IMG/VR virus record: IMGVR_UViG_2711768030_000006
Direction: 5' to 3' (one strand)
Length of the DNA: 21,490 nucleotides
Source of the DNA: a virus
Lineage: Duplodnaviria; Heunggongvirae; Uroviricota; Caudoviricetes
How positions within the stretch are numbered: the first letter of the stretch is position 1; each line of letters opens with the position of its first letter. Below, one piece after another: positions 3,069 through 20,743 of the stretch. A program made the translations under genes and the position numbers. The notes beneath the pieces were generated by a model, which was given only the letters and a program-made list of their open reading frames with translations, made no database searches and was not told the origin of the DNA.

Positions 3069-3671
3069 ATGAGCTATTTTCTGCGCAAAAAATGGATGGT
3101 AAATTTGTCCGGGTCAGGAAAAATTTTATGGGCGCTAAACATGAAAAAAGATTCGTATCCTTATTTGATTTGCATGACAGTTTCAGGGCTGATCTTTATT
3201 TTCCTTTTCTTCTGGTGGCGGGCAGATATCTACAGGGTCACGTTTCTTAATCAGAGTATATCCCACTATTACATTCTGTTTAGCATGGGAATAGCTTTTC
3301 TGTTATCTCTGTTTTGGGTTAAGAAGGGGATAGTAAAACAAAGCGGCTGGAAGAGTCTGTCAGCATACCTTAAGGTTTATGCAGGGATGTGCATATTTGC
3401 TGGATTTTTTCTGATTATACCCCTTACGACACTAACTTATTTTTTGCCTGGAGAGACATCGTCTTATGTTGCACCGTATCGGTATACTTCCGGTAGTTCA
3501 AAAAGTTGTTCTGGAGCTGAGGTGGATGACCCCGATCTACATGAGAATATTCGCATTTGCTATCCGTATGGCAATTATGAGTACGATAATATTATCTATG
3601 TTGAAAAGAAAATTAATATATTAGGTGCGGTAGTGACATATGCACAGACCGCGCGTGATGATACTGAATGA
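3069..3671 (+). CDS. Hypothetical integral membrane protein (3 predicted TM helices plus about 70-aa Cys/Tyr-rich C-terminal domain); start uncertain (ATG at 3069, 3096 or 3141)
   Basis: 200-codon ORF in strongly AT-rich DNA (about 35% GC in sampled lines); hydrophobic segments LICMTVSGLIFIFLFFWW, YYILFSMGIAFLLSLFWV, VYAGMCIFAGFFLIIPLTTLTYFL; opposite strand to the surrounding pL operon; no recognisable lambda counterpart. Confidence 0.6.
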   Translation: MSYFLRKKWMVNLSGSGKILWALNMKKDSYPYLICMTVSGLIFIFLFFWWRADIYRVTFLNQSISHYYILFSMGIAFLLSLFWVKKGIVKQSGWKSLSAYLKVYAGMCIFAGFFLIIPLTTLTYFLPGETSSYVAPYRYTSGSSKSCSGAEVDDPDLHENIRICYPYGNYEYDNIIYVEKKINILGAVVTYAQTARDDTE

Positions 3672-9201: not shown

Positions 9202-10556
<1,355 letters not shown>

Positions 10557-14127: not shown

Positions 14128-14486
14128 ATACCTACAGCATCACATTACCCTGGCCTCCGAGCAATAATCGCTATTACCGCCATAATCGCGGACGCACGCA
14201 CATCAGCGCAGAGGGGCAGGCATACCGCGATAACGTCGCCCGAATCATTAAAAACGCAATGCTAGATATCGGCCTGGCTATGCCTGTGAAAATCCGCATT
14301 GAGTGCCACATGCCGGATCGCCGTCGCCGTGACCTGGATAATCTGCAAAAAGCCGCTTTTGACGCACTCACTAAAGCAGGTTTCTGGCTGGATGATGCTC
14401 AGGTCGTTGATTACCGCGTTGTGAAGATGCCTGTTACCAAAGGTGGGAGGCTGGAACTGACCATCACCGAAATGGGGAATGAATGA
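14124..14486 (+). CDS. rusA: RusA Holliday-junction resolvase, 120 aa
   Basis: [25 protein letters not shown]...[31 protein letters not shown] matches E. coli/DLP12 RusA; GTG start. Confidence 0.93.
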
Positions 14487-14623
14487 TGTTTGAGTTTAAT
14501 ATGGCAGAACTTCTTCGCCACCGCTGGGGGCGTCTGCGCTTATATCGTTTCCCCGGTTCTGTTTTGACCGATTACCGAATACTGAAGAATTACGCCAAAA
14601 CACTGACAGGAGCAGGAGTATGA
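14483..14623 (+). CDS. ylcG: YlcG-like small protein, 46 aa
   Basis: Hand-translated [46 protein letters not shown]; overlaps the rusA stop; sits between rusA and Q as in DLP12. Confidence 0.6.
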
Positions 14624-14708
14624 AGTCAGAGATAACAATCAACTAATACTGTTTTGTTGATTTTTGCTTGTAATTGGCGTTCTGGTCTGAGTTTTGTGGA
14701 GTAAGTTG

Positions 14709-15086
14709 ATGCGTGATATTCAGATGGTTCTTGAGCGTTGGGGAGCGTGGGCGGCTAATAATCATGAAGATGTGACCTGGTCGTCCATTGCCGCCGGTTT
14801 TAAGGGATTAATTCCTTCAAAAGTAAAATCTCGCCCACAATGTTGTGACGATGACGCGATGATCATTTGCGGGTGCATGGCCCGTCTGAAAAAGAACAAC
14901 AGCGATTTGCATGATTTATTGGTGGACTATTATGTCGGCGGCATGACTTTTATGGCGCTTGCACGTAAGCATGGGCGATCTGATTGTTGGGTTGGCAGGA
15001 TGCTTCAGAAAGCTGAGGGCGTAGTGGAGGGTATGCTGATGGTGTTGGATCTCCGATTGGAGATGGATGCTGATTGTTCGAAATAA
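14709..15086 (+). CDS. Late-gene antiterminator Q, short phage-82/DLP12 QuuD type, 125 aa
   Basis: Cys-rich zinc-binding-like motif ([16 protein letters not shown]); GGAG Shine-Dalgarno 7 nt before ATG; position immediately upstream of a terminator and the late region. Confidence 0.75.
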
Positions 15087-15184
15087 TTAAAGGAAAAGTT
15101 GCTGTCTGATTGTCATTAGTCTAACATTTTAAATGTTGGAATCGCAACGTAGTTATTATCATATAACAGCTTGTTTCCTGATTT
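15087..15184 (+). promoter_or_regulatory. Candidate late promoter pR' and Q-utilisation region
   Basis: AT-rich interval between Q stop and the tR'-like terminator; the hexamers could not be placed reliably. Confidence 0.35.
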
Positions 15185-15213
15185 AGCCAGCCTCCCCAAA
15201 GGCTGGTTTTTTT
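15185..15213 (+). terminator. tR'-like intrinsic terminator
   Basis: Stem ccagcct (15187-15193) / aggctgg (15200-15206) followed by TTTTTTT. Confidence 0.8.
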
Positions 15214-15241
15214 CTAATAAGTATTATTTCGGGTAGGGATT

Positions 15242-15766
15242 TTATTGTTTAACCCATAATAATTCATTGACATTGAATCCCAACTTTTGAGCGGTTCGCA
15301 CATAGTCTGCTTTTACTTTATCTGGAATAGTTGGGGTCCTTGCCAGAATCCATAGGTATTCTCTGTTCGGACCACTGACAAGAGCATACTTATACTCATC
15401 ATCCAGTTTGATTACATTATAGCCACCATAGAAGGGGCCAAAAAACGAAACCTTCAATGCTGCAGTTTTAGTATCTCCAGTAAAGTATGCTTTACCTTCG
15501 CTCTCGCTCCATTTATTTTTCGTTGGATCGTATCCACGGTTAAGTACACGAATCCCTCCGTCGTTCCGTTTTCCATAAGTAGCGCTGACCTGTTCCAGAC
15601 CACGTTCGAACCGGTTCTCGAGGCGAGCTATTTCATACCATTTTCCGAGGTAGCGGTTGGCGTCAAAATTTGTAATCGGCTGCACACCTTTAGGTGGTGT
15701 CGGGGCCTTACATGCTATAAGAGTGAAAGAGAGTGCAATGCCAGTCAACACAGGCCATAACTTCAT
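15242..15766 (-). CDS. Blc-like bacterial lipocalin, outer-membrane lipoprotein, 174 aa
   Basis: Lipoprotein signal with LIAC lipobox; lipocalin motifs NFDANRYLGKWYEIARLENRFERG and FTGDTKTAALKVSFFGPFYGGYNVIKLD closely resemble E. coli Blc; AGGA Shine-Dalgarno. Confidence 0.85.
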   Translation of the reverse strand: MKLWPVLTGIALSFTLIACKAPTPPKGVQPITNFDANRYLGKWYEIARLENRFERGLEQVSATYGKRNDGGIRVLNRGYDPTKNKWSESEGKAYFTGDTKTAALKVSFFGPFYGGYNVIKLDDEYKYALVSGPNREYLWILARTPTIPDKVKADYVRTAQKLGFNVNELLWVKQ

Positions 15767-15958
15767 AATAAATCCTGTACTTTTGATAGTTGAGAGTAAG
15801 TATGAAAGATAGATGATTACGACCGATCACTTAAAGAACTTTCATACTATATTAGGAATAGTCCATAACAGAAAAATTGTCAGTGATGACGCCAGAAAGG
15901 CAATTTATTCCGTGCACTACACAGTTTATGTGTTAATGAATTAGTCAAGGGGGAGAAT

Positions 15959-16918
15959 ATGATAAAAAAACCTGTGATTGGAATCAGCGGTTGTTTGGCC
16001 GGTTCTGCTGTTCGTTTTGATGGTGGTCACAAAAGAGCTGACTTTTTAATGGACAAATTAGTGGAATGGGTAACATTCAGACCAGTATGTCCGGAAATGG
16101 CTATAGGGCTGCCAGTTCCGCGTCCTGCTCTACGTCTTGTGCGCTCGACGCAAGGAAATATACGGATGTGTTTCAGCCACGACCAGAATGAGGATGTGAC
16201 AGAGAGAATGACAGAGTTTAGTCGTTCTTATATGGACAAATTAAAGGATGTATCGGGGTTTGTGGTTTGTGCTAAATCTCCCAGCTGTGGCATGGAGCGC
16301 GTGCGTGTCTATGATGAAAATGGTAATCGAGGTCGTAAAGATGGAGTGGGACTATTTACGAGCACTTTGATGGAAAAGTTTTCCTGGCTACCGGTTGAAG
16401 AGGATGGGCGATTACATGATCCAGTGCTTCGTGAGAATTTTGTTGAAAGAGTTTTTGCTTTGCATGAGCTCAATCACCTTTACAAGGAGAAATTATCAAG
16501 AAGAGAGTTATTAGCTTTTCATAGTCGTTATAAGCTTCAGTTGTTGGCGCATAGTCAGGCAGGCTATAAAGATATGGGACCATTTGTGGCTGCAATACAC
16601 GAGTGGGCGGACCTTGAATCATACTTTGAGGTGTATCGTGATAAGCTGATGGCGATTCTCAGAAAACCTGCATCACGTAAAAATCACACGAATGTGCTGA
16701 TGCATATACAGGGGTATTTTAGTAACTACTTAAGTACACGCCAGCGTAAAGAGTTGAGCGAGGTTATACTTAACTATCGTTCTGGCACATTACCTCTTCT
16801 TGCGCCGTTGACTCTGCTGAAGCATTATCTGGGTGAGTATCCTAATGATTACTTGCTTACACAGAATTACTTCGATCCCTATCCGGACGAACTGGCTCTA
16901 AGACTGATGGTAAATTAA
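15959..16918 (+). CDS. DUF523 (TudS-like, cysteine-rich putative Fe-S) fused to DUF1722 (YbgA-like) protein, 319 aa
   Basis: N-terminal half has Cys spacing GISGCLAG...PVCPE...CAKSPSCG typical of DUF523; C-terminal half resembles YbgA-type DUF1722; GGGGGAG Shine-Dalgarno. Confidence 0.7.
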   Translation: MIKKPVIGISGCLAGSAVRFDGGHKRADFLMDKLVEWVTFRPVCPEMAIGLPVPRPALRLVRSTQGNIRMCFSHDQNEDVTERMTEFSRSYMDKLKDVSGFVVCAKSPSCGMERVRVYDENGNRGRKDGVGLFTSTLMEKFSWLPVEEDGRLHDPVLRENFVERVFALHELNHLYKEKLSRRELLAFHSRYKLQLLAHSQAGYKDMGPFVAAIHEWADLESYFEVYRDKLMAILRKPASRKNHTNVLMHIQGYFSNYLSTRQRKELSEVILNYRSGTLPLLAPLTLLKHYLGEYPNDYLLTQNYFDPYPDELALRLMVN

Positions 16919-17269
16919 TTGTATGCGATATCATCCAAAAGGATGAGTTCCTGCATGCAGGATATTTACAATCGTAAAAACTACACTATGATACCCAGAG
17001 TGTCAGTTTGTATAAAAACTCTGTTTACGCTGAAGAAACAATTGAGATGCAACTTAAAGTTGGTAAACATGCCAGTCAAAATATATAATATTATGATTCC
17101 ACGCAGCTATATATAATATAACGGATTGGTTTAATAATTTGTCTTTGTGAGTTAAATACATAATTTTATACTTGTGATGCAATGAAATTTTCCTTATTGT
17201 TGAACTGGCGAATATTGATTTTCCACCTATACTTACCTGGTGTAACCCCAATGATATCAGGTGGATAAT

Positions 17270-18001
17270 ATGCCATACATATGTTCTATCATTTTGGTGT
17301 TGAACTCGTTTGATGTCCGAATTGGTAAAGAAGATATTTTGTTTAAAAAAGGAAGTGCTGTTCTCATTGATTACAATTTAAAAGATTTTTTTTCATCAAA
17401 TATAGATCATGTAATGATCGTAGATGTTGAAGAGAAAACAGTTAATGATTTCTTTAAAAGCAACACACTCTCACCTTTTTCTGTAAGAAGGTTTTATCCG
17501 GCATACTTGATGGTGGAATGTGAAGATTTTTCATTGTTAAAGAACTTGATTGCATGCTTGAATTGTGATGGCAGAACTGTGGATTTTGTTAGAAATCAAA
17601 TATCACTTGCATGTCTTGCTATCTTATCTTCAGAGAAAATAGTGCAAAGTTTTTTATTTGGATGTCTTAATAGTTTAGGAAGTAAAGTTAAGGCTATTAT
17701 TCACACGGATATATCTGCAGCATGGAGACTTTGTGATATATCTTCAAGACTGTATCTGAGTGAAAGTCTGTTAAAAAGAAAATTAAAGCACGAAGGCTTA
17801 TCATTTAGTAAGTTAATTCTTGAAGAGCGAATGGTGATGGCGGAAAGGTTATTAAGCTACAATTTATATTCTGTTGGAAAAGTTGCTGAGATATGCGGTT
17901 ATGAAAACACGTCATATTTTGTAAGTGTTTTCAGAAGGTATTTTGGTGTTCCTCCCCATCAATATTCATCAAGATTTTTTTTAGAAAAAGACATGATGTA
18001 A
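17270..18001 (+). CDS. AraC/XylS-family transcriptional regulator (AppY/GadX/Rns-like), 243 aa from ATG 17270 (GTG at 17261 also possible)
   Basis: C-terminal double HTH (WRLCDISSRLYLSESLLKRKLKHEGLSFSKLILEERMVMAERLL...VGKVAEICGYENTSYFVSVFRRYFGVPP); AGGTGG Shine-Dalgarno 5 nt upstream; very AT-rich gene and leader. Confidence 0.85.
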   Translation: MPYICSIILVLNSFDVRIGKEDILFKKGSAVLIDYNLKDFFSSNIDHVMIVDVEEKTVNDFFKSNTLSPFSVRRFYPAYLMVECEDFSLLKNLIACLNCDGRTVDFVRNQISLACLAILSSEKIVQSFLFGCLNSLGSKVKAIIHTDISAAWRLCDISSRLYLSESLLKRKLKHEGLSFSKLILEERMVMAERLLSYNLYSVGKVAEICGYENTSYFVSVFRRYFGVPPHQYSSRFFLEKDMM

Positions 18002-18062
18002 CGTGATGCGTTTTAATGATTTTGTAATTTTCGTATTTGATAATTGTATGATGCTTTCAGCT

Positions 18063-18095
18063 ACGCCAGAATAATCGCGGCGTTTTTCTTTTTGA
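18063..18095 (+). terminator. Weak terminator-like hairpin after the AraC-family gene
   Basis: Short stem acgcc / ggcgt followed by TTTTTCTTTTT. Confidence 0.25.
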
Positions 18096-18188
18096 ATAGA
18101 TGTTCAAGCCTTACGCTAATGTAACTTCTATACCTTTCCTCTTCGTTCCGAACCGTGTACACCATCCGTTATTTGCGGAGGTGAGGCT

Positions 18189-18404
18189 ATGAAATCCATG
18201 GATAAGTTAACAACGGGCATTGCCTACGGCACCTCCGCAGGCAGTGCTGGCTACTGGTTTTTACAGCTGCTCGATAAAGTCACGCCCTCACAGTGGGCAG
18301 CAATAGGTGTGCTGGGTAGCTTGGTATTTGGCCTGCTGACGTACCTGACAAACCTTTATTTCAAGATTAAAGAAGATAAGCGCAAGGCTGCGAGAGGTGA
18401 ATAA
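18189..18404 (+). CDS. S: Class II holin of phage-21 type (pinholin S21) with dual start (71-aa antiholin from 18189, 68-aa holin from 18198)
   Basis: [71 protein letters not shown] matches S21; two TM segments; MKSM dual-start motif. Confidence 0.92.
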
Positions 18405-18901
18405 TGCCTCCATCATTACGAAAAGCCGTTGCTGCTGCTATTGGTGGCGGAGCAATTGCTATAGCATCAGTGTTAATCACTGGCCCAAGTGGTAACGATG
18501 GTCTGGAAGGTGTCAGCTACATACCATACAAAGATATCGTTGGCGTATGGACTGTATGTCACGGGCATACAGGAAAAGACATCATTCCCGGTAAAACGTA
18601 TACCGAAGCAGAATGCAAAGCCCTCCTGAATAAAGACCTTGCCACGGTAGCCAGACAAATTAACCCGTACATCAAAGTCGATATACCGGAAACAACGCGC
18701 GGCGCTCTTTACTCGTTCGTCTATAACGTGGGCGCAGGCAATTTCAGAACATCTACTCTTCTTCGCAAAATAAACCAGGGCGATATCAAGGGCGCATGTG
18801 ACCAGCTACGTCGCTGGGCATACGCTGGCGGTAAGCAATGGAAAGGCCTGATGACTCGTCGTGAGATTGAGCGTGAGGTCTGTTTGTGGGGGCAACAATG
18901 A
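18404..18901 (+). CDS. R: SAR endolysin (phage-21 R-type lysozyme with N-terminal signal-anchor-release domain), 165 aa
   Basis: Gly/Ala-rich N-terminal segment [23 protein letters not shown] followed by a lysozyme domain; matches R21. Confidence 0.92.
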
Positions 18902-19365
18902 GCAGGGTAACCGCGATTATCTCCGCTCTGGTTATCTGCATCATCGTCTGCCTGTCATGGGCTGTTAATCATTACCGTGATAATGCAATCGCCTACAAAG
19001 AACAGCGCGATAACAAGGCCAGTGAACTGGAGAAGGCGAACGCCACCATTACTGACATGCAGCAGCGCCAGCGTGATGCTGATGCACTCGATGATAAATA
19101 CACGAAGGAGTTAGCTGATGCGAAAGCTGAAAATGATGCTCTTCGGCGCAAGCTTGATAATGGTGGTCGGGTGCTCGTCAAAGGAAAATGCCCTGTGCCA
19201 TCCTCAGCCGAAACCTCCAGCGCCTCCGGCATGGGCAATGATGCCACCGTCGAACTCTCTCCAGTTGCTGGACGAAACGTTCTCGGTATCCGGGACGGAA
19301 TTATCCGCGACCAAACAGCACTGAGAACGCTTCAGGAATACATCAGGACGCAATGCCTTCGATGA
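18898..19365 (+). CDS. Rz: Rz i-spanin
   Basis: [31 protein letters not shown]... N-terminal TM then coiled-coil; ATGA overlap with R stop. Confidence 0.9.
19118..19324 (+). CDS. Rz1: Rz1 o-spanin lipoprotein, embedded in the +1 frame of Rz
   Basis: [22 protein letters not shown] lipobox followed by proline-rich [11 protein letters not shown]; entirely inside Rz. Confidence 0.8.
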
Positions 19366-19600: not shown

Positions 19601-19856
19601 GATAATGGCTTATACCCTACACGGGATAACTTAACTGATATCCCTTTTAAAGGATAAAGGTATTCAAGCCTGACACATCATGCGCTGTATCGTCGCCGTA
19701 TTCCCGTATTAACAGAGACCGTAGCCCGACGGGGAACTCCTTCTGCGCGAGTGTGTGGGAATAATCAAAAACGATGCACACCGGGGTTACCGGGTACACA
19801 TATTTCATCATGCCAGCGAGTCCGGTTCTGGCACGGAAGAAACCGGACGTTATGAT

Positions 19857-20267
19857 TTAGTGCGGAAATATTTGTGTAGTGTTCTGAATGTTCTCAGTAA
19901 AGAGTAATGAATTATCAAAGGTATAGTAATACCTTTTGTTTTCGTGGATATTTGTAATCCATCTGAAAACCCCTGCTGTAGCAAGATTTTTCCTGTATTC
20001 GTAAAATGATAACTCTCCTGATTTGAATCCTTTTAAGGTGGCTTCTATAAGGCATTTATTTTTTGAAAATCTTACATTTACAACCTTACCCTGTCCTTTT
20101 ATTAAAACCGTATTATCGTTTTCAAGAACAAGATGAATATTCTCTGTGGCTAAATAGTAAATGTAATGTGAGACATTGTGACGTTTTAGTTCAGAATAAA
20201 ACCAGTGATAGTTTAAATTATTTCGCACTTTATCGAATATTTGTTTAAAAATGGCAACCTGAGCCAT
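19857..20267 (-). CDS. Hypothetical protein, DUF1398-like (YbcV/YdfO family), 136 aa from the SD-supported ATG at 20267
   Basis: GGAAGG Shine-Dalgarno 7 nt before the ATG at 20267; part of the remembered lambda right-end sequence; family assignment from memory only. Confidence 0.55.
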
Positions 20268-20323
20268 TGTAGTACCTTCCATGTGATATGAGGGGTGTAG
20301 TCTGCACGATTATCTAAATTGCT

Positions 20324-20557
20324 TCAATCTGGTCTGATCTGTTTTCTGAGCAATTCAGTAATGTCACTCTTTTCTTTGTTTGCTTCAGGAGAAACTCTTT
20401 TTTCTGAGCACAGTCTCCGGCGGCAGGCTTCAATGACCCAGGCTGAGAAATTCCCGGACCCTTTTTGATCAAGAGCGATGTTAATTTGTTCAATCATTTG
20501 GTTAGGAAAGCGGATGTTGCGGGTTGTTGTTCTGCGGGTTCTGTTCTTCGTTGACAT
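20324..20557 (-). CDS. Small ribbon-helix-helix-like DNA-binding protein, 77 aa
   Basis: Basic N-terminus then RNIRFPNQMIEQINIAL...GNFSAWVIEACRRRL, consistent with a beta-strand plus two-helix RHH fold; first gene of a two-gene minus-strand unit. Confidence 0.55.
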   Translation of the reverse strand: MSTKNRTRRTTTRNIRFPNQMIEQINIALDQKGSGNFSAWVIEACRRRLCSEKRVSPEANKEKSDITELLRKQIRPD

Positions 20558-20743
20558 GAGGTTGTCCCGTATTCAGTGTCGCTGATTTGTATTGTCTGAA
20601 GTTGTTTTTACGTTAAGTTGATGCAGATCAATTAATACGATACCTGCGTGATAATTGATTATTTGACGTGGTTTGATGGCGTAGATGCACGTTGTGACAT
20701 GTAGATGATAATTATTATCATTTTCGGGTCCTTTCCGGCGATC

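What the first reader, a model, noticed from the sequence alone, without database searches (positions are those of the whole stretch)
15087..18188. Three-gene accessory cluster in the Q-to-lysis slot, the position stx occupies in Stx phages
Between the tR'-like terminator and the holin lie three genes unrelated to phage propagation: a Blc-like lipocalin lipoprotein (minus strand), a DUF523/DUF1722 protein and an AraC-family regulator (both plus strand). The plus-strand genes would be read through by Q-antiterminated late transcription on induction, and may also have their own promoters. Base composition drops sharply across the cluster, especially in the AraC gene and its leader, indicating separate horizontal acquisition. 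This combination could be a lysogenic-conversion module.
Basis: partly seen in the sequence, partly recalled or inferred. Interest (0 to 1): 0.68.

Follow-up and report, generated by a model that had tools for sequence, protein, structure and literature searches.

The report
Known cargo cassette in phage late operon
Between the late-gene switch and the lysis genes, this lambda-like E. coli prophage carries a common, partly described set of three passenger genes (a membrane lipocalin, a tRNA 4-thiouridine-removing enzyme and an AraC-type regulator); the main new point is that a run of eight T's switches the regulator off in about half of the strains that carry this version of it.

Summary
Three non-phage genes lie between a strong terminator after Q (15185-15214) and the S21-type holin (18189). 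They are a Blc-like lipoprotein (15242-15766, minus strand), a DUF523+DUF1722 protein (15959-16918) and an AraC-family regulator (17270-18001, GC 0.32).

The cluster is neither rare nor unknown. About one in five complete E. coli genomes carries it, as do plaque-forming phages (1H12, Lambda_2G7a, IdasGreatGrand). blc was already listed as a frequent lambda moron. The middle gene is 93% identical to 'RudS_vir' of phage 1H12, a published tRNA 4-thiouridine desulfidase. The AraC protein is untested. It is 54% and 40% identical to the probable EHEC prophage regulators PatE and PsrB, and the probable PsrB also sits in a Q-to-lysis slot.

New here:
- blc and rudS were probably captured together from an enterobacterial chromosome, where they are divergent neighbours. 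araC arrived separately.
- All three genes are under purifying selection.
- A T8 tract in araC is frameshifted in about half of the carriers of this allele (T8 240, T7 225, T6 13 genomes), against about 1% at a control T8 tract.

Verdict: an ordinary composite moron cassette. Interest is modest.

The parts
14709..15086 (+). Late antiterminator Q (82/21/DLP12 QuuD type); left border of the slot
   Evidence: PF06530 E=2.5e-51. 93% nt identity to DLP12 quuD up to position 15068.
15099..15127 (+). Candidate late promoter PR' (TTGCTG, 17 nt, TAACAT); inferred, not mapped
   Evidence: Read from the sequence. The consensus scan did not list it, and promoter-like sites in the region are not above chance.
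15185..15214 (+). tR'-like intrinsic terminator: 9-bp GC-rich stem followed by U7
   Evidence: Terminator scan. RNA fold dG -14.9 kcal/mol, z -3.5, 0 of 200 shuffles as stable. Conserved in phages 1H12 and IdasGreatGrand.
15242..15766 (-). Blc-like outer-membrane lipocalin lipoprotein. Lipobox LIAC with Cys19 and Lys at +2. Antisense to late transcription.
   Evidence: Lipocalin_2 E=7e-44. NCBIfam Blc 316 bits, above the 267 cut-off. 60% identical to K-12 Blc, 97% to 1H12 gp65, 78-82% to chromosomal Blc next to rudS in Enterobacter and Leclercia. The identical protein WP_000780581.1 was detected and rose 2-3 fold on meropenem in a proteome study.
15767..15958 (.). Divergent blc/rudS control region
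   Evidence: 90% identical between the two allele classes, with no gaps. The ~140 nt next to blc are nearly invariant. No promoter was called above chance.
15959..16918 (+). RudS-type tRNA 4-thiouridine desulfidase (TudS/DUF523 fused to DUF1722), with Cys12, Cys44 and Cys110
   Evidence: PF04463 E=3e-40 and PF08349 E=2e-40. 93% identical to 1H12 gp66, the 'RudS_vir' tested in PMC11417400. dN/dS 0.11.
16919..16960 (+). Stable hairpin immediately after the rudS stop codon, without a U-run
   Evidence: RNA fold dG -21.4 kcal/mol, z -3.7.
16919..17269 (+). AT-rich araC leader and promoter region (GC 0.32); the most divergent part of the cassette
   Evidence: 65% identity plus 39 gap columns against the 1H12 allele. 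Promoter-like sites at 17060-17089 and 17145-17172, not above chance.
17270..18001 (+). AraC/XylS-family regulator of the YdeO/GadX/PatE/Psr/Rns-like group
   Evidence: PF12833 and PF00165. Best NCBIfam model is YdeO at 127 bits, below the 348 cut-off. 54% identical to the EDL933 CP-933H AraC (probable PatE) and 40% to the CP-933O AraC (probable PsrB). Closest solved structures: GadX DNA-binding domain, CsvR, Rns, ToxT. dN/dS 0.26.
17386..17393 (+). T8 tract in araC codons 39-42; a length-polymorphic frameshift hotspot (in frame in this window)
   Evidence: Complete genomes: T8 240, T7 225, T6 13. Control T8 at 17975: T8 350, T7 4. IMG/VR loci: 9 of 51 off-frame against 0 of 37 at the control, p=0.009, on several haplotypes. 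PGAP marks a T7 copy 'frameshifted'.
18063..18093 (+). Terminator-like hairpin and U-run after araC, weakened in this window by a 1-nt deletion
   Evidence: In 1H12: 7-bp stem, dG -11.3 kcal/mol, z -2.7. In the window: dG -7.3, z -0.2.
18189..19365 (+). Lysis cassette (S21-type holin, lysozyme, Rz with embedded Rz1); right border of the slot
   Evidence: PF04971, PF00959 and PF03245. Homology to DLP12 essD-rrrD-rzpD resumes at 18178.

Best explanation
This is a composite cargo ('moron') cassette in the PR'/tR'-to-S slot of a lambda-like temperate coliphage. It was built from two acquisitions, and its genes work independently of one another.

(1) blc and rudS came in together as a divergent pair from an enterobacterial chromosome, without the MlrA-like MerR regulator that lies between them in Enterobacter.
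- Blc is an outer-membrane lipocalin lipoprotein. It is made from its own promoter in the lysogen, on the strand opposite to late transcription. Its likely role is in the envelope stress and lipid-handling repertoire.
- RudS is a [4Fe-4S] desulfidase that converts s4U8 in host tRNA back to U. K-12 lacks this activity and has only the stand-alone DUF1722 protein YbgA.
- rudS lies in the sense orientation between tR' and S, so it has to be transcribed whenever Q-modified polymerase reads through to the lysis and morphogenesis genes. My inference is that RudS strips the UVA-sensitive s4U from tRNA after induction, which is often UV-triggered. That would limit tRNA cross-linking, growth delay and the stringent response while late proteins are made. 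Any basal expression would give the lysogen the same protection.

(2) araC is a separately acquired, AT-rich regulator that is probably silenced by H-NS. It belongs to the YdeO/GadX/PatE/Psr group. It most likely activates host stress genes, with the GAD/hdeAB acid-resistance genes as the best guess. A slippage-prone T8 tract near its 5' end switches it off in about half of the carriers of this allele.

Shown: gene identities, cassette boundaries, prevalence, presence in viable phages, purifying selection, chromosomal synteny of blc and rudS, Blc protein expression, the RudS_vir activity (published), and the T-tract polymorphism.

Inferred: Q-dependent co-transcription, the timing and benefit of RudS, the targets of AraC, and H-NS silencing.
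For: - Anatomy and families.
- The cassette replaces the DLP12 nmpC segment precisely between Q and S.
- Prevalence in complete E. coli genomes: whole interval in 979 of 5426, blc-rudS in 1151, araC in 1034.
- The order Q, blc, rudS, araC, holin is seen in nearly all of 80 IMG/VR loci.
- The same cassette is in the isolated phages 1H12, Lambda_2G7a and IdasGreatGrand.
- Late transcription must cross it in phages that form plaques (inference from lambda biology).
- dN/dS against the 1H12 allele: blc 0.06, rudS 0.11, araC 0.26. Phage core genes give 0.06-0.10.
- RudS: 93% identical to RudS_vir with Cys12/44/110 kept. PMC11417400 reports that all tested RudS proteins, RudS_vir included, lower tRNA s4U, and that RudS_KT shortens the UVA growth delay.
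- Co-capture: in about 40 of 64 genome loci a Blc that is 78-82% identical lies divergently upstream of rudS. In Citrobacter sedlakii the two are directly adjacent, 188 nt apart, against 192 nt here.
- Blc protein WP_000780581.1, identical to the window protein, was detected by proteomics.
- AraC relatives: probable PatE at 54% and probable PsrB at 40%. The latter follows a Q-family antiterminator directly. An Stx2k phage has the same arrangement. PatE, PsrA and PsrB act on gadE, hdeA and yhiF according to the review PMC10877973.
- T tract.
Against: - No transcription data were examined, so Q-dependent expression of rudS and araC is architectural inference only.
- The promoter scans are at chance level.
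- RudS_vir showed lower tRNA desulfidation than other RudS proteins despite good expression.
- The published UVA phenotype was obtained with Pseudomonas RudS_KT, not with the phage enzyme.
- No phage phenotype for rudS is known.
- AraC is only 40-54% identical to the characterised regulators and fails the YdeO equivalog cut-off. Target specificity in this family is not predictable at that distance.
- The PatE and PsrB assignments rest on location and annotation, not on verified accessions.
- Half of the carriers of this allele have a frameshifted araC, and IS elements often sit in the cassette. Part of it may therefore be dispensable baggage.
- The AraC structure model is of low confidence (pLDDT 64).
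Confidence: 0.6

Rival explanations
1. The cluster is one co-adapted lysogenic-conversion module. All three genes are expressed in the lysogen as a functional unit, with AraC controlling blc and rudS, and together they raise envelope, UV or acid fitness of the host.
For: The three genes are adjacent and mostly co-occur in about 1000 genomes. All are under purifying selection. The phage copy of blc-rudS has lost the MerR-type regulator found in chromosomes, so a replacement regulator is conceivable. Blc protein is made in a lysogen.
Against: The genes have separate origins and different composition. araC is frameshifted in about half of the carriers of this allele while blc and rudS stay intact. 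One locus has blc-rudS without araC (L142). araC relatives sit in other prophage positions without blc or rudS. blc is on the opposite strand.
Confidence: 0.15
2. The cassette serves superinfection exclusion, anti-phage defence or counter-defence. Blc would mask an outer-membrane receptor, as the Cor and Llp lipoproteins do. RudS would alter tRNAs to evade or trigger tRNA-targeting immunity.
For: Prophage outer-membrane lipoproteins often act in exclusion (general knowledge). The window also encodes SieB. tRNA is a frequent battleground. The same slot in Stx phages holds tRNA genes.
Against: None of the three proteins hits PADLOC. Blc is 60% identical to housekeeping Blc and about 80% identical to chromosomal orthologs, with full-length family membership. 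RudS has a defined housekeeping-type activity and chromosomal orthologs across Enterobacteriaceae.
Confidence: 0.07
3. The cluster is neutral hitch-hiking DNA. It persists because it sits in a permissive slot of a successful prophage lineage and is slowly decaying.
For: IS1, IS2, IS3 and IS5 insertions are found in the cassette in many genomes. araC frameshifts are common. The terminator after araC is degraded in this window.
Against: dN/dS is 0.06-0.26 across about 8-13% nucleotide divergence between the two allele classes. The cassette is retained in packaging-limited, plaque-forming phages. The intergenic control region is conserved. Blc protein is detected. RudS_vir is enzymatically active.
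Confidence: 0.1

Closest known systems
RudS_vir (gp66 of Escherichia phage 1H12) and the RudS tRNA 4-thiouridine desulfidases (Jamontas et al., NAR 2024, PMC11417400)
   Same: Same TudS/DUF523 + DUF1722 fusion, same 319-aa length, the same three cluster-binding cysteines, 93% identity and the same position in the same cassette.
   Different: The window protein has 21 substitutions and was not itself assayed. The paper says nothing about the phage context, the late-operon position, the linked blc or araC, or a role in the phage life cycle. It also states that E. coli lacks RudS, whereas about 20% of complete E. coli genomes carry it on this prophage cassette.
blc moron of infant-gut Lambda-like coliphages (Mathieu et al., Nat Commun 2020, PMC6969025) and chromosomal Blc of E. 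coli
   Same: Same gene family and the same phage group. blc was reported in more than 50% of 19 Lambda-type isolates. It is a full-length member of the Blc subfamily with a lipobox.
   Different: Only 60% identical to K-12 Blc. It is closer (78-82%) to the Blc that neighbours rudS in Enterobacter and Leclercia. No function has been tested for the phage copy.
PatE, PsrA and PsrB, prophage-encoded AraC-like regulators of EHEC O157:H7 (Bender 2012; Tree 2011; Yang 2015, as summarised in PMC10877973)
   Same: Small (237-247 aa), AT-rich, prophage-borne AraC-like proteins that align over their full length: 54% identity to the CP-933H protein and 40% to the CP-933O protein. The CP-933O gene and its Stx2k-phage homolog lie directly downstream of a Q-family antiterminator and upstream of the lysis genes, which is the same slot.
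   Different: A distinct ortholog group (phrog_1450) with no experimental data. It is linked to blc-rudS rather than to tRNA genes, stx or effector genes. It carries a polymorphic T8 tract. My identification of the EDL933 genes as PatE and PsrB is by location and annotation only.
stx, nmpC and lc: cargo in the Q-to-S slot of lambdoid phages (933W, DLP12, PA-2)
   Same: The same slot between the late promoter/terminator and the holin. rudS and araC have the orientation of stx. blc has the reversed orientation of nmpC in DLP12.
   Different: Different gene content. No toxin or porin is present.
YdeO, GadX and AppY of E. coli, and the Rns, CsvR and ToxT virulence regulators
   Same: YdeO is the best NCBIfam model, and the full length aligns to it. 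The DNA-binding domain is 40% identical to that of GadX, with TM 0.86-0.89. The best full-length structural hits are Rns, CsvR and ToxT.
   Different: Below every equivalog cut-off. The N-terminal domain is modelled with low confidence, so a fatty-acid pocket like that of Rns or ToxT cannot be assessed.

Membership tests
Bacterial lipocalin Blc (outer-membrane lipoprotein) | Lipocalin_2 domain over the full length, scoring above the curated Blc subfamily cut-off | tested here: met
   PF08212 E=7e-44. NF007786 316 bits against a cut-off of 267. PDB Blc chains E=3.5e-69.
Bacterial lipocalin Blc (outer-membrane lipoprotein) | Signal peptide with a lipobox cysteine and a non-Asp residue at +2 (outer-membrane sorting) | tested here: met
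   Read from the translation...FTLIAC19K20. No predictor was run. Localisation itself was not tested.
Bacterial lipocalin Blc (outer-membrane lipoprotein) | Binding of lysophospholipid or fatty acid | not testable with these tools
   Needs biochemistry.
RudS (tRNA s4U desulfidase) | TudS/DUF523 domain fused to DUF1722 | tested here: met
   PF04463 at residues 7-149 and PF08349 at residues 192-309.
RudS (tRNA s4U desulfidase) | Three conserved cysteines that ligate the [4Fe-4S] cluster (Cys12, Cys44 and Cys110 in RudS_vir) | tested here: met
   All three are present at the same positions (alignment; table in PMC11417400).
RudS (tRNA s4U desulfidase) | Lowers the s4U content of tRNA in vivo | not testable with these tools
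   Published for the 93%-identical RudS_vir. Not assayed for this allele.
AraC/XylS family | C-terminal double helix-turn-helix DNA-binding domain | tested here: met
   PF12833 E=1e-14 and PF00165 E=2e-11. The GadX DNA-binding domain superposes with TM 0.86-0.89.
YdeO equivalog (acid-resistance activator) | Score above the NCBIfam equivalog cut-off | tested here: not met
   127 bits against a cut-off of 348.
PatE/Psr group of prophage AraC-like regulators | Full-length homology to the EHEC prophage regulators, and a prophage location | tested here: met
   54% over 235 aa and 40% over 240 aa. The identity of the EDL933 genes as PatE and PsrB was inferred from island and prophage location.
PatE/Psr group of prophage AraC-like regulators | Activates gadE, hdeAB or yhiF and so changes acid resistance or type III secretion | not testable with these tools
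   Needs genetics, ChIP or RNA-seq.
Moron (Hendrix/Juhala sense) | Extra DNA between genes that are adjacent in related phages, with deviant base composition | tested here: met
   Breakpoints against DLP12 at 15068 and 18178. GC 0.32-0.44 against 0.48-0.53 in the flanks.
Moron (Hendrix/Juhala sense) | Own promoter and own terminator | tested here: inconclusive
   A terminator after araC is clear in the 1H12 allele but degraded here. Promoter-like sites are not above chance. Blc protein is made in a lysogen, which implies a promoter for blc.
Late-operon (stx-like) cargo | Lies between the Q-dependent promoter/terminator and S, on the late strand | tested here: met
   rudS and araC meet this. 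blc does not, since it is antisense.
Late-operon (stx-like) cargo | Expression rises Q-dependently on induction | not testable with these tools
   No transcript data are available here.
Phase-variable (contingency) gene | Homopolymer in the 5' coding region whose length varies among isolates more than a matched control | tested here: met
   T8 240, T7 225, T6 13, against a control of 350 and 4. p=0.009 in the IMG/VR loci, on several haplotypes.
Phase-variable (contingency) gene | Reversible, high-frequency switching within a clone | not testable with these tools
   Needs fluctuation assays or deep amplicon sequencing. The only hint is one T9 allele with a compensating 1-nt deletion.

The most novel reading that the evidence does not exclude
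The cassette couples two uncharted behaviours.

(a) A temperate phage places a tRNA 'eraser' (RudS) in its Q-dependent late transcript. Prophage induction, typically by UV, would then strip the photosensitive s4U8 from host tRNAs and keep translation running for virion production. This would be a translation-tuning cargo analogous to the tRNA genes that occupy the same slot in Stx phages.

(b) The linked AraC-type regulator is a true contingency gene. Its T8 tract would switch it reversibly between a full-length form and an off or truncated form (Met49 restart 8 nt after the premature stop). Lysogen populations would then be heterogeneous for a host stress regulon.
Probability: 0.2. Interest if true: 0.6.

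Novelty: new member of a known kind. Interest (0 to 1): 0.35.

Why it matters
- It corrects a textbook-style statement. E. coli is said to lack RudS, but about a fifth of complete E. coli genomes have it, always on this prophage cassette. tRNA s4U levels and UVA responses may therefore differ between strains because of a prophage.
- It gives the published 'viral RudS' a genomic context: a late-operon position, and linkage to a Blc that is also its chromosomal neighbour.
- It adds an untested, very common member to the PatE/Psr group of prophage regulators that rewire host acid resistance and virulence. This member exists in on and off states in nature.
- None of this changes how lambdoid cargo slots are understood.

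Tried and rejected
- Rfam scan of 14400-18500: nothing significant. The best hit was E=0.007, lay on the terminator hairpin and was far below gathering score.
- PADLOC on the three cargo proteins and on three other unknown ORFs: no hits. A defence role was set aside.
- PHROGs: each cargo gene has its own family, all labelled 'unknown function'. This only confirms they are catalogued phage genes.
- Promoter consensus scan: 13 sites against 11.8 expected. It cannot be used to assign promoters.
- Search for PsrA (z1789) in the EDL933 CP-933N region of assembly CP008957: no AraC-like gene is annotated and tblastn finds none. This is unresolved, so the OI-57 gene was used instead.
- The primary papers of Bender 2012, Yang 2015 and Tree 2011 are not held. 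Functions were taken from reviews.
- Light-regulon link between lipocalins and RudS: only an anecdotal Chryseobacterium case was found. Dropped.
- PMC12888859 and PMC12987596 matched the keywords but are irrelevant: one concerns lipocalin-2 assays, the other blc next to blaCMY-2.
- DNA alignment of the cassette to chromosomal blc-rudS loci: the coding regions are only 67-75% identical and the intergenic regions do not align. No donor species can be named.
- AlphaFold model of AraC: mean pLDDT 64, with residues 61-133 below 50. Only the DNA-binding domain and the overall Rns/ToxT-like ranking are usable. No ligand pocket could be analysed.

Full report
CONTEXT. The window is the left and central part of a lambda-like prophage inserted next to ybhC, at the lambda attachment site. 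From left to right it encodes integrase, excisionase, exo/bet/gam, SieB, N, a cI-type repressor, cII, O, P, NinB, NinX, RusA and Q. The cluster under study follows, then holin, lysozyme and Rz, and finally Nu1.

OBSERVATION.
- Q (PF06530) ends at 15086.
- A 9-bp GC-rich hairpin followed by U7 lies at 15185-15214. Its dG is -14.9 kcal/mol with z -3.5, and it is the only strong intrinsic terminator in 14400-18500.
- A 174-aa lipoprotein lies on the minus strand (15242-15766). It scores above the curated cut-off of NCBIfam's Blc subfamily and has a LIAC lipobox.
- A 319-aa DUF523+DUF1722 protein (15959-16918) and an AraC-type protein lie on the plus strand. The AraC ORF opens at GTG 17261, and the likely start is ATG 17270.
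- The S21-type holin starts at 18189.
- GC falls from about 0.48-0.53 in the flanking phage genes to 0.44 in blc and rudS, and to 0.32 (GC3 0.27) in araC and its leader.
- Against K-12 DLP12, homology ends at 15068 and resumes at 18178, and DLP12 carries nmpC in the interval. This is therefore the classical replaceable cargo slot in which Stx phages carry stx.

HOW COMMON, AND IS IT IN LIVE PHAGES?
- Megablast against 5426 complete E. coli genomes finds the whole Q-to-S interval (at least 80% covered) in 979 genomes. The blc-rudS segment is in 1151 and the araC segment in 1034.
- In 80 IMG/VR viral contigs the order Q, blc, rudS, araC, holin is almost invariant, while the lysozyme downstream switches type.
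- The same cassette is in phages isolated as virions: 1H12 and Lambda_2G7a (infant-gut temperate phages, 89% nt identity across 14400-19145) and IdasGreatGrand (97%). In such phages late transcription must traverse the cassette to reach S, R, Rz and the structural genes. This is inference from lambda biology.

WHAT IS ALREADY PUBLISHED.
- Mathieu et al. 2020 (PMC6969025) list blc, 'a bacterial lipocalin', among morons present in more than 50% of their 19 Lambda-type phages.
- Jamontas et al. 2024 (PMC11417400) define RudS, a TudS desulfidase fused to DUF1722, as a tRNA 4-thiouridine 'eraser'. They tested 'RudS_vir', which is gp66 of phage 1H12. It lowered tRNA s4U in E. coli, though less than other RudS proteins did. 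Overexpression of RudS_KT shortened the UVA-induced growth delay.
- The window protein is 93% identical to gp66, with Cys12, Cys44 and Cys110 intact. The window Blc is 97% identical to 1H12 gp65.
- That paper states that E. coli lacks RudS and has only the stand-alone DUF1722 protein YbgA. This holds for K-12, but about 20% of complete genomes have RudS on this cassette.
- A 2026 proteome study lists WP_000780581.1 as 'Blc', rising 2-3 fold on meropenem. That accession is the prophage protein and is identical to the window protein. The phage blc is therefore translated in a lysogen.

ORIGIN.
- A scan of one genome per species with RudS finds chromosomal orthologs at 66-77% identity in Citrobacter, Enterobacter, Kluyvera, Leclercia, Klebsiella oxytoca, Pectobacterium and others.
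- In about 40 of 64 loci a Blc that is 78-82% identical to the phage Blc lies divergently upstream of rudS, in the phage's orientation.
- In Enterobacter an MlrA-like MerR regulator and a transthyretin-like gene lie between the two. In Citrobacter sedlakii the two genes are directly adjacent, 188 nt apart, against 192 nt here.
- No AraC homolog accompanies them.
- The phage therefore most likely captured blc and rudS together and lost their native regulator. araC is a second, AT-rich acquisition.
- No donor species can be named. The coding DNA is only 67-75% identical and the intergenic regions do not align.

SELECTION. Between the two allele classes (window type and 1H12 type), dN/dS is 0.06 for blc, 0.11 for rudS and 0.26 for araC. 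For Q, holin and lysozyme it is 0.06-0.10. The blc-rudS intergenic region is 90% conserved and nearly invariant next to blc. The araC leader is only 65% identical, with indels.

THE REGULATOR.
- The best curated model is YdeO, but the score is far below its cut-off.
- The nearest solved structures are the GadX DNA-binding domain and full-length CsvR, Rns and ToxT. The AlphaFold model is weak in the N-terminal domain.
- The protein is 54% identical over its full length to the only AraC gene of EDL933 prophage CP-933H, which is probably PatE (z0321).
- It is 40% identical to an AraC-like gene of CP-933O (OI-57), which is probably PsrB (z2104).
- That gene lies directly after a DUF1133/Q-family antiterminator and before tRNA genes, nanS-p and the holin.
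- An Stx2k phage has the order Q, AraC-like gene (39% identity), three tRNA genes, stx2AB, holin.
- An AraC-like regulator in the Q-to-lysis slot is therefore an established arrangement. Its characterised members act on the GAD and hdeAB acid-resistance regulators (review PMC10877973). That is the best available guess for this protein, but it is a guess.

A NEW DETAIL: THE T8 TRACT.
- The window-type araC has a T8 run at 17386-17393 (codons 39-42).
- In the IMG/VR loci 9 of 51 copies have T7, T6 or T9. A second T8 at the 3' end of the same gene (17975), an A7 in rudS and two A6 runs essentially do not vary. The comparison of 9/51 with 0/37 gives p=0.009.
- The variants sit on several cassette haplotypes, some of which are shared with T8 copies.
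- One T9 copy carries a compensating 1-nt deletion 20 nt upstream.
- In complete genomes the exact 89-nt context occurs with T8 in 240 genomes, T7 in 225 and T6 in 13. The control tract gives T8 in 350 and T7 in 4. This is therefore not an assembly artefact.
- PGAP marks a T7 copy as frameshifted.
- In the T7 form a 44-codon ORF stops at TAG, and 8 nt later an in-frame ATG (Met49) opens a 195-aa ORF. This matches a large cluster of 195-aa gene calls (P0011).
- The 1H12-type allele has the tract interrupted.
- Whether this is reversible phase variation or recurrent selected loss cannot be decided here.
- The frameshifts also argue against the three genes being an obligate unit, because blc and rudS stay intact in T7 genomes.

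MECHANISM (BEST READING). The cluster is a composite moron cassette.
- Blc is made in the lysogen from its own promoter, antisense to the late transcript.
- rudS and araC are sense-oriented and lie downstream of tR'. They are therefore necessarily part of the Q-antiterminated late transcript and may also have weak promoters of their own.
- A hairpin follows rudS (16919-16960).
- A terminator follows araC. It is clear in 1H12 and weakened by a 1-nt deletion here, and it would keep lysogenic transcription out of S.
- The attractive but untested idea is that late-expressed RudS removes the UVA-sensitive s4U8 from host tRNA after UV induction and so protects late translation.

VERDICT. The cluster is common, two of its three genes are already in the literature, and AraC genes in this slot are known. 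What remains of interest is the co-captured blc-rudS pair, the late-operon position of RudS and the polymorphic T8 tract. Interest is 0.35, and the novelty class is a new member of a known kind.

Noticed in passing
window 17386-17393: A T8 tract in araC is length-polymorphic among isolates. Complete genomes: T8 240, T7 225, T6 13. A control T8 at 17975-17982 is stable: T8 350, T7 4. The T7 form gives a 44-aa ORF followed, 8 nt after its stop codon, by an in-frame Met49 restart codon.
   Followed up: yes
window 18063-18093: The terminator after araC has lost one T from its 3' stem arm relative to 1H12 and IdasGreatGrand (CGCTGGCG becomes CGCGGCG). Stability drops from -11.3 to -7.3 kcal/mol. 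Lysogenic araC transcripts might therefore leak into the holin gene in this prophage.
   Followed up: partly
window 16919-16960: A very stable hairpin (dG -21.4 kcal/mol, z -3.7) lies immediately after the rudS stop codon and has no U-run. It could be a transcript-stabilising or processing element. The surrounding rudS-araC spacer is the least conserved part of the cassette.
   Followed up: partly
L035:3021-5960 (Enterobacter cloacae) and about 40 other genome loci: There is a conserved chromosomal neighbourhood: blc (minus strand), then an MlrA-like MerR regulator, a transthyretin/HIUase-like gene and rudS (all plus strand). It suggests that Blc and RudS belong to one MerR-controlled stress module in Enterobacteriaceae.
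   Followed up: partly
L062 and L067 (contigs of a 'Candidatus Nanosynbacter' MAG): Contigs binned into a Saccharibacteria MAG carry this E. coli prophage cassette at 94-100% protein identity. This is almost certainly binning contamination.
   Followed up: no
hits H4-H7, H22-H23, H59, H61, H68; L147: IS1, IS2, IS3 and IS5 elements are inserted in the cassette in many genomes. Some split rudS into separate DUF523 and YbgA calls. One locus has a 1.2-kb insert inside araC.
   Followed up: partly
L005 (EDL933 CP-933N / OI-50 region, assembly CP008957): Reviews place psrA (z1789) in OI-50. In this assembly no AraC-like gene is annotated there, and tblastn with the window AraC finds nothing. The slot after the antiterminator holds only a TerB pseudogene and a DUF3927 gene.
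   Followed up: partly
window 9202-9678 (minus strand): An ORF sits directly downstream of the cI-type repressor, in the position of lambda rexAB. It matches phrog_2651 (unknown function) and has no Pfam or PADLOC hit. It is a candidate immunity-region moron.
   Followed up: partly
window 19800-20600: A second AT-rich island (GC about 0.33) lies after the lysis genes. It holds minus-strand DUF1398 (YbcV-like) and DUF3950 (YlcI-like) genes, another cargo position shared with DLP12.
   Followed up: no
window 3069-3671 (plus strand): A 200-aa ORF lies on the strand opposite to the early-left genes, between xis and exo. Only its C-terminal 88 residues match phrog_1416 (unknown function), and it has no Pfam hit.
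   Followed up: no
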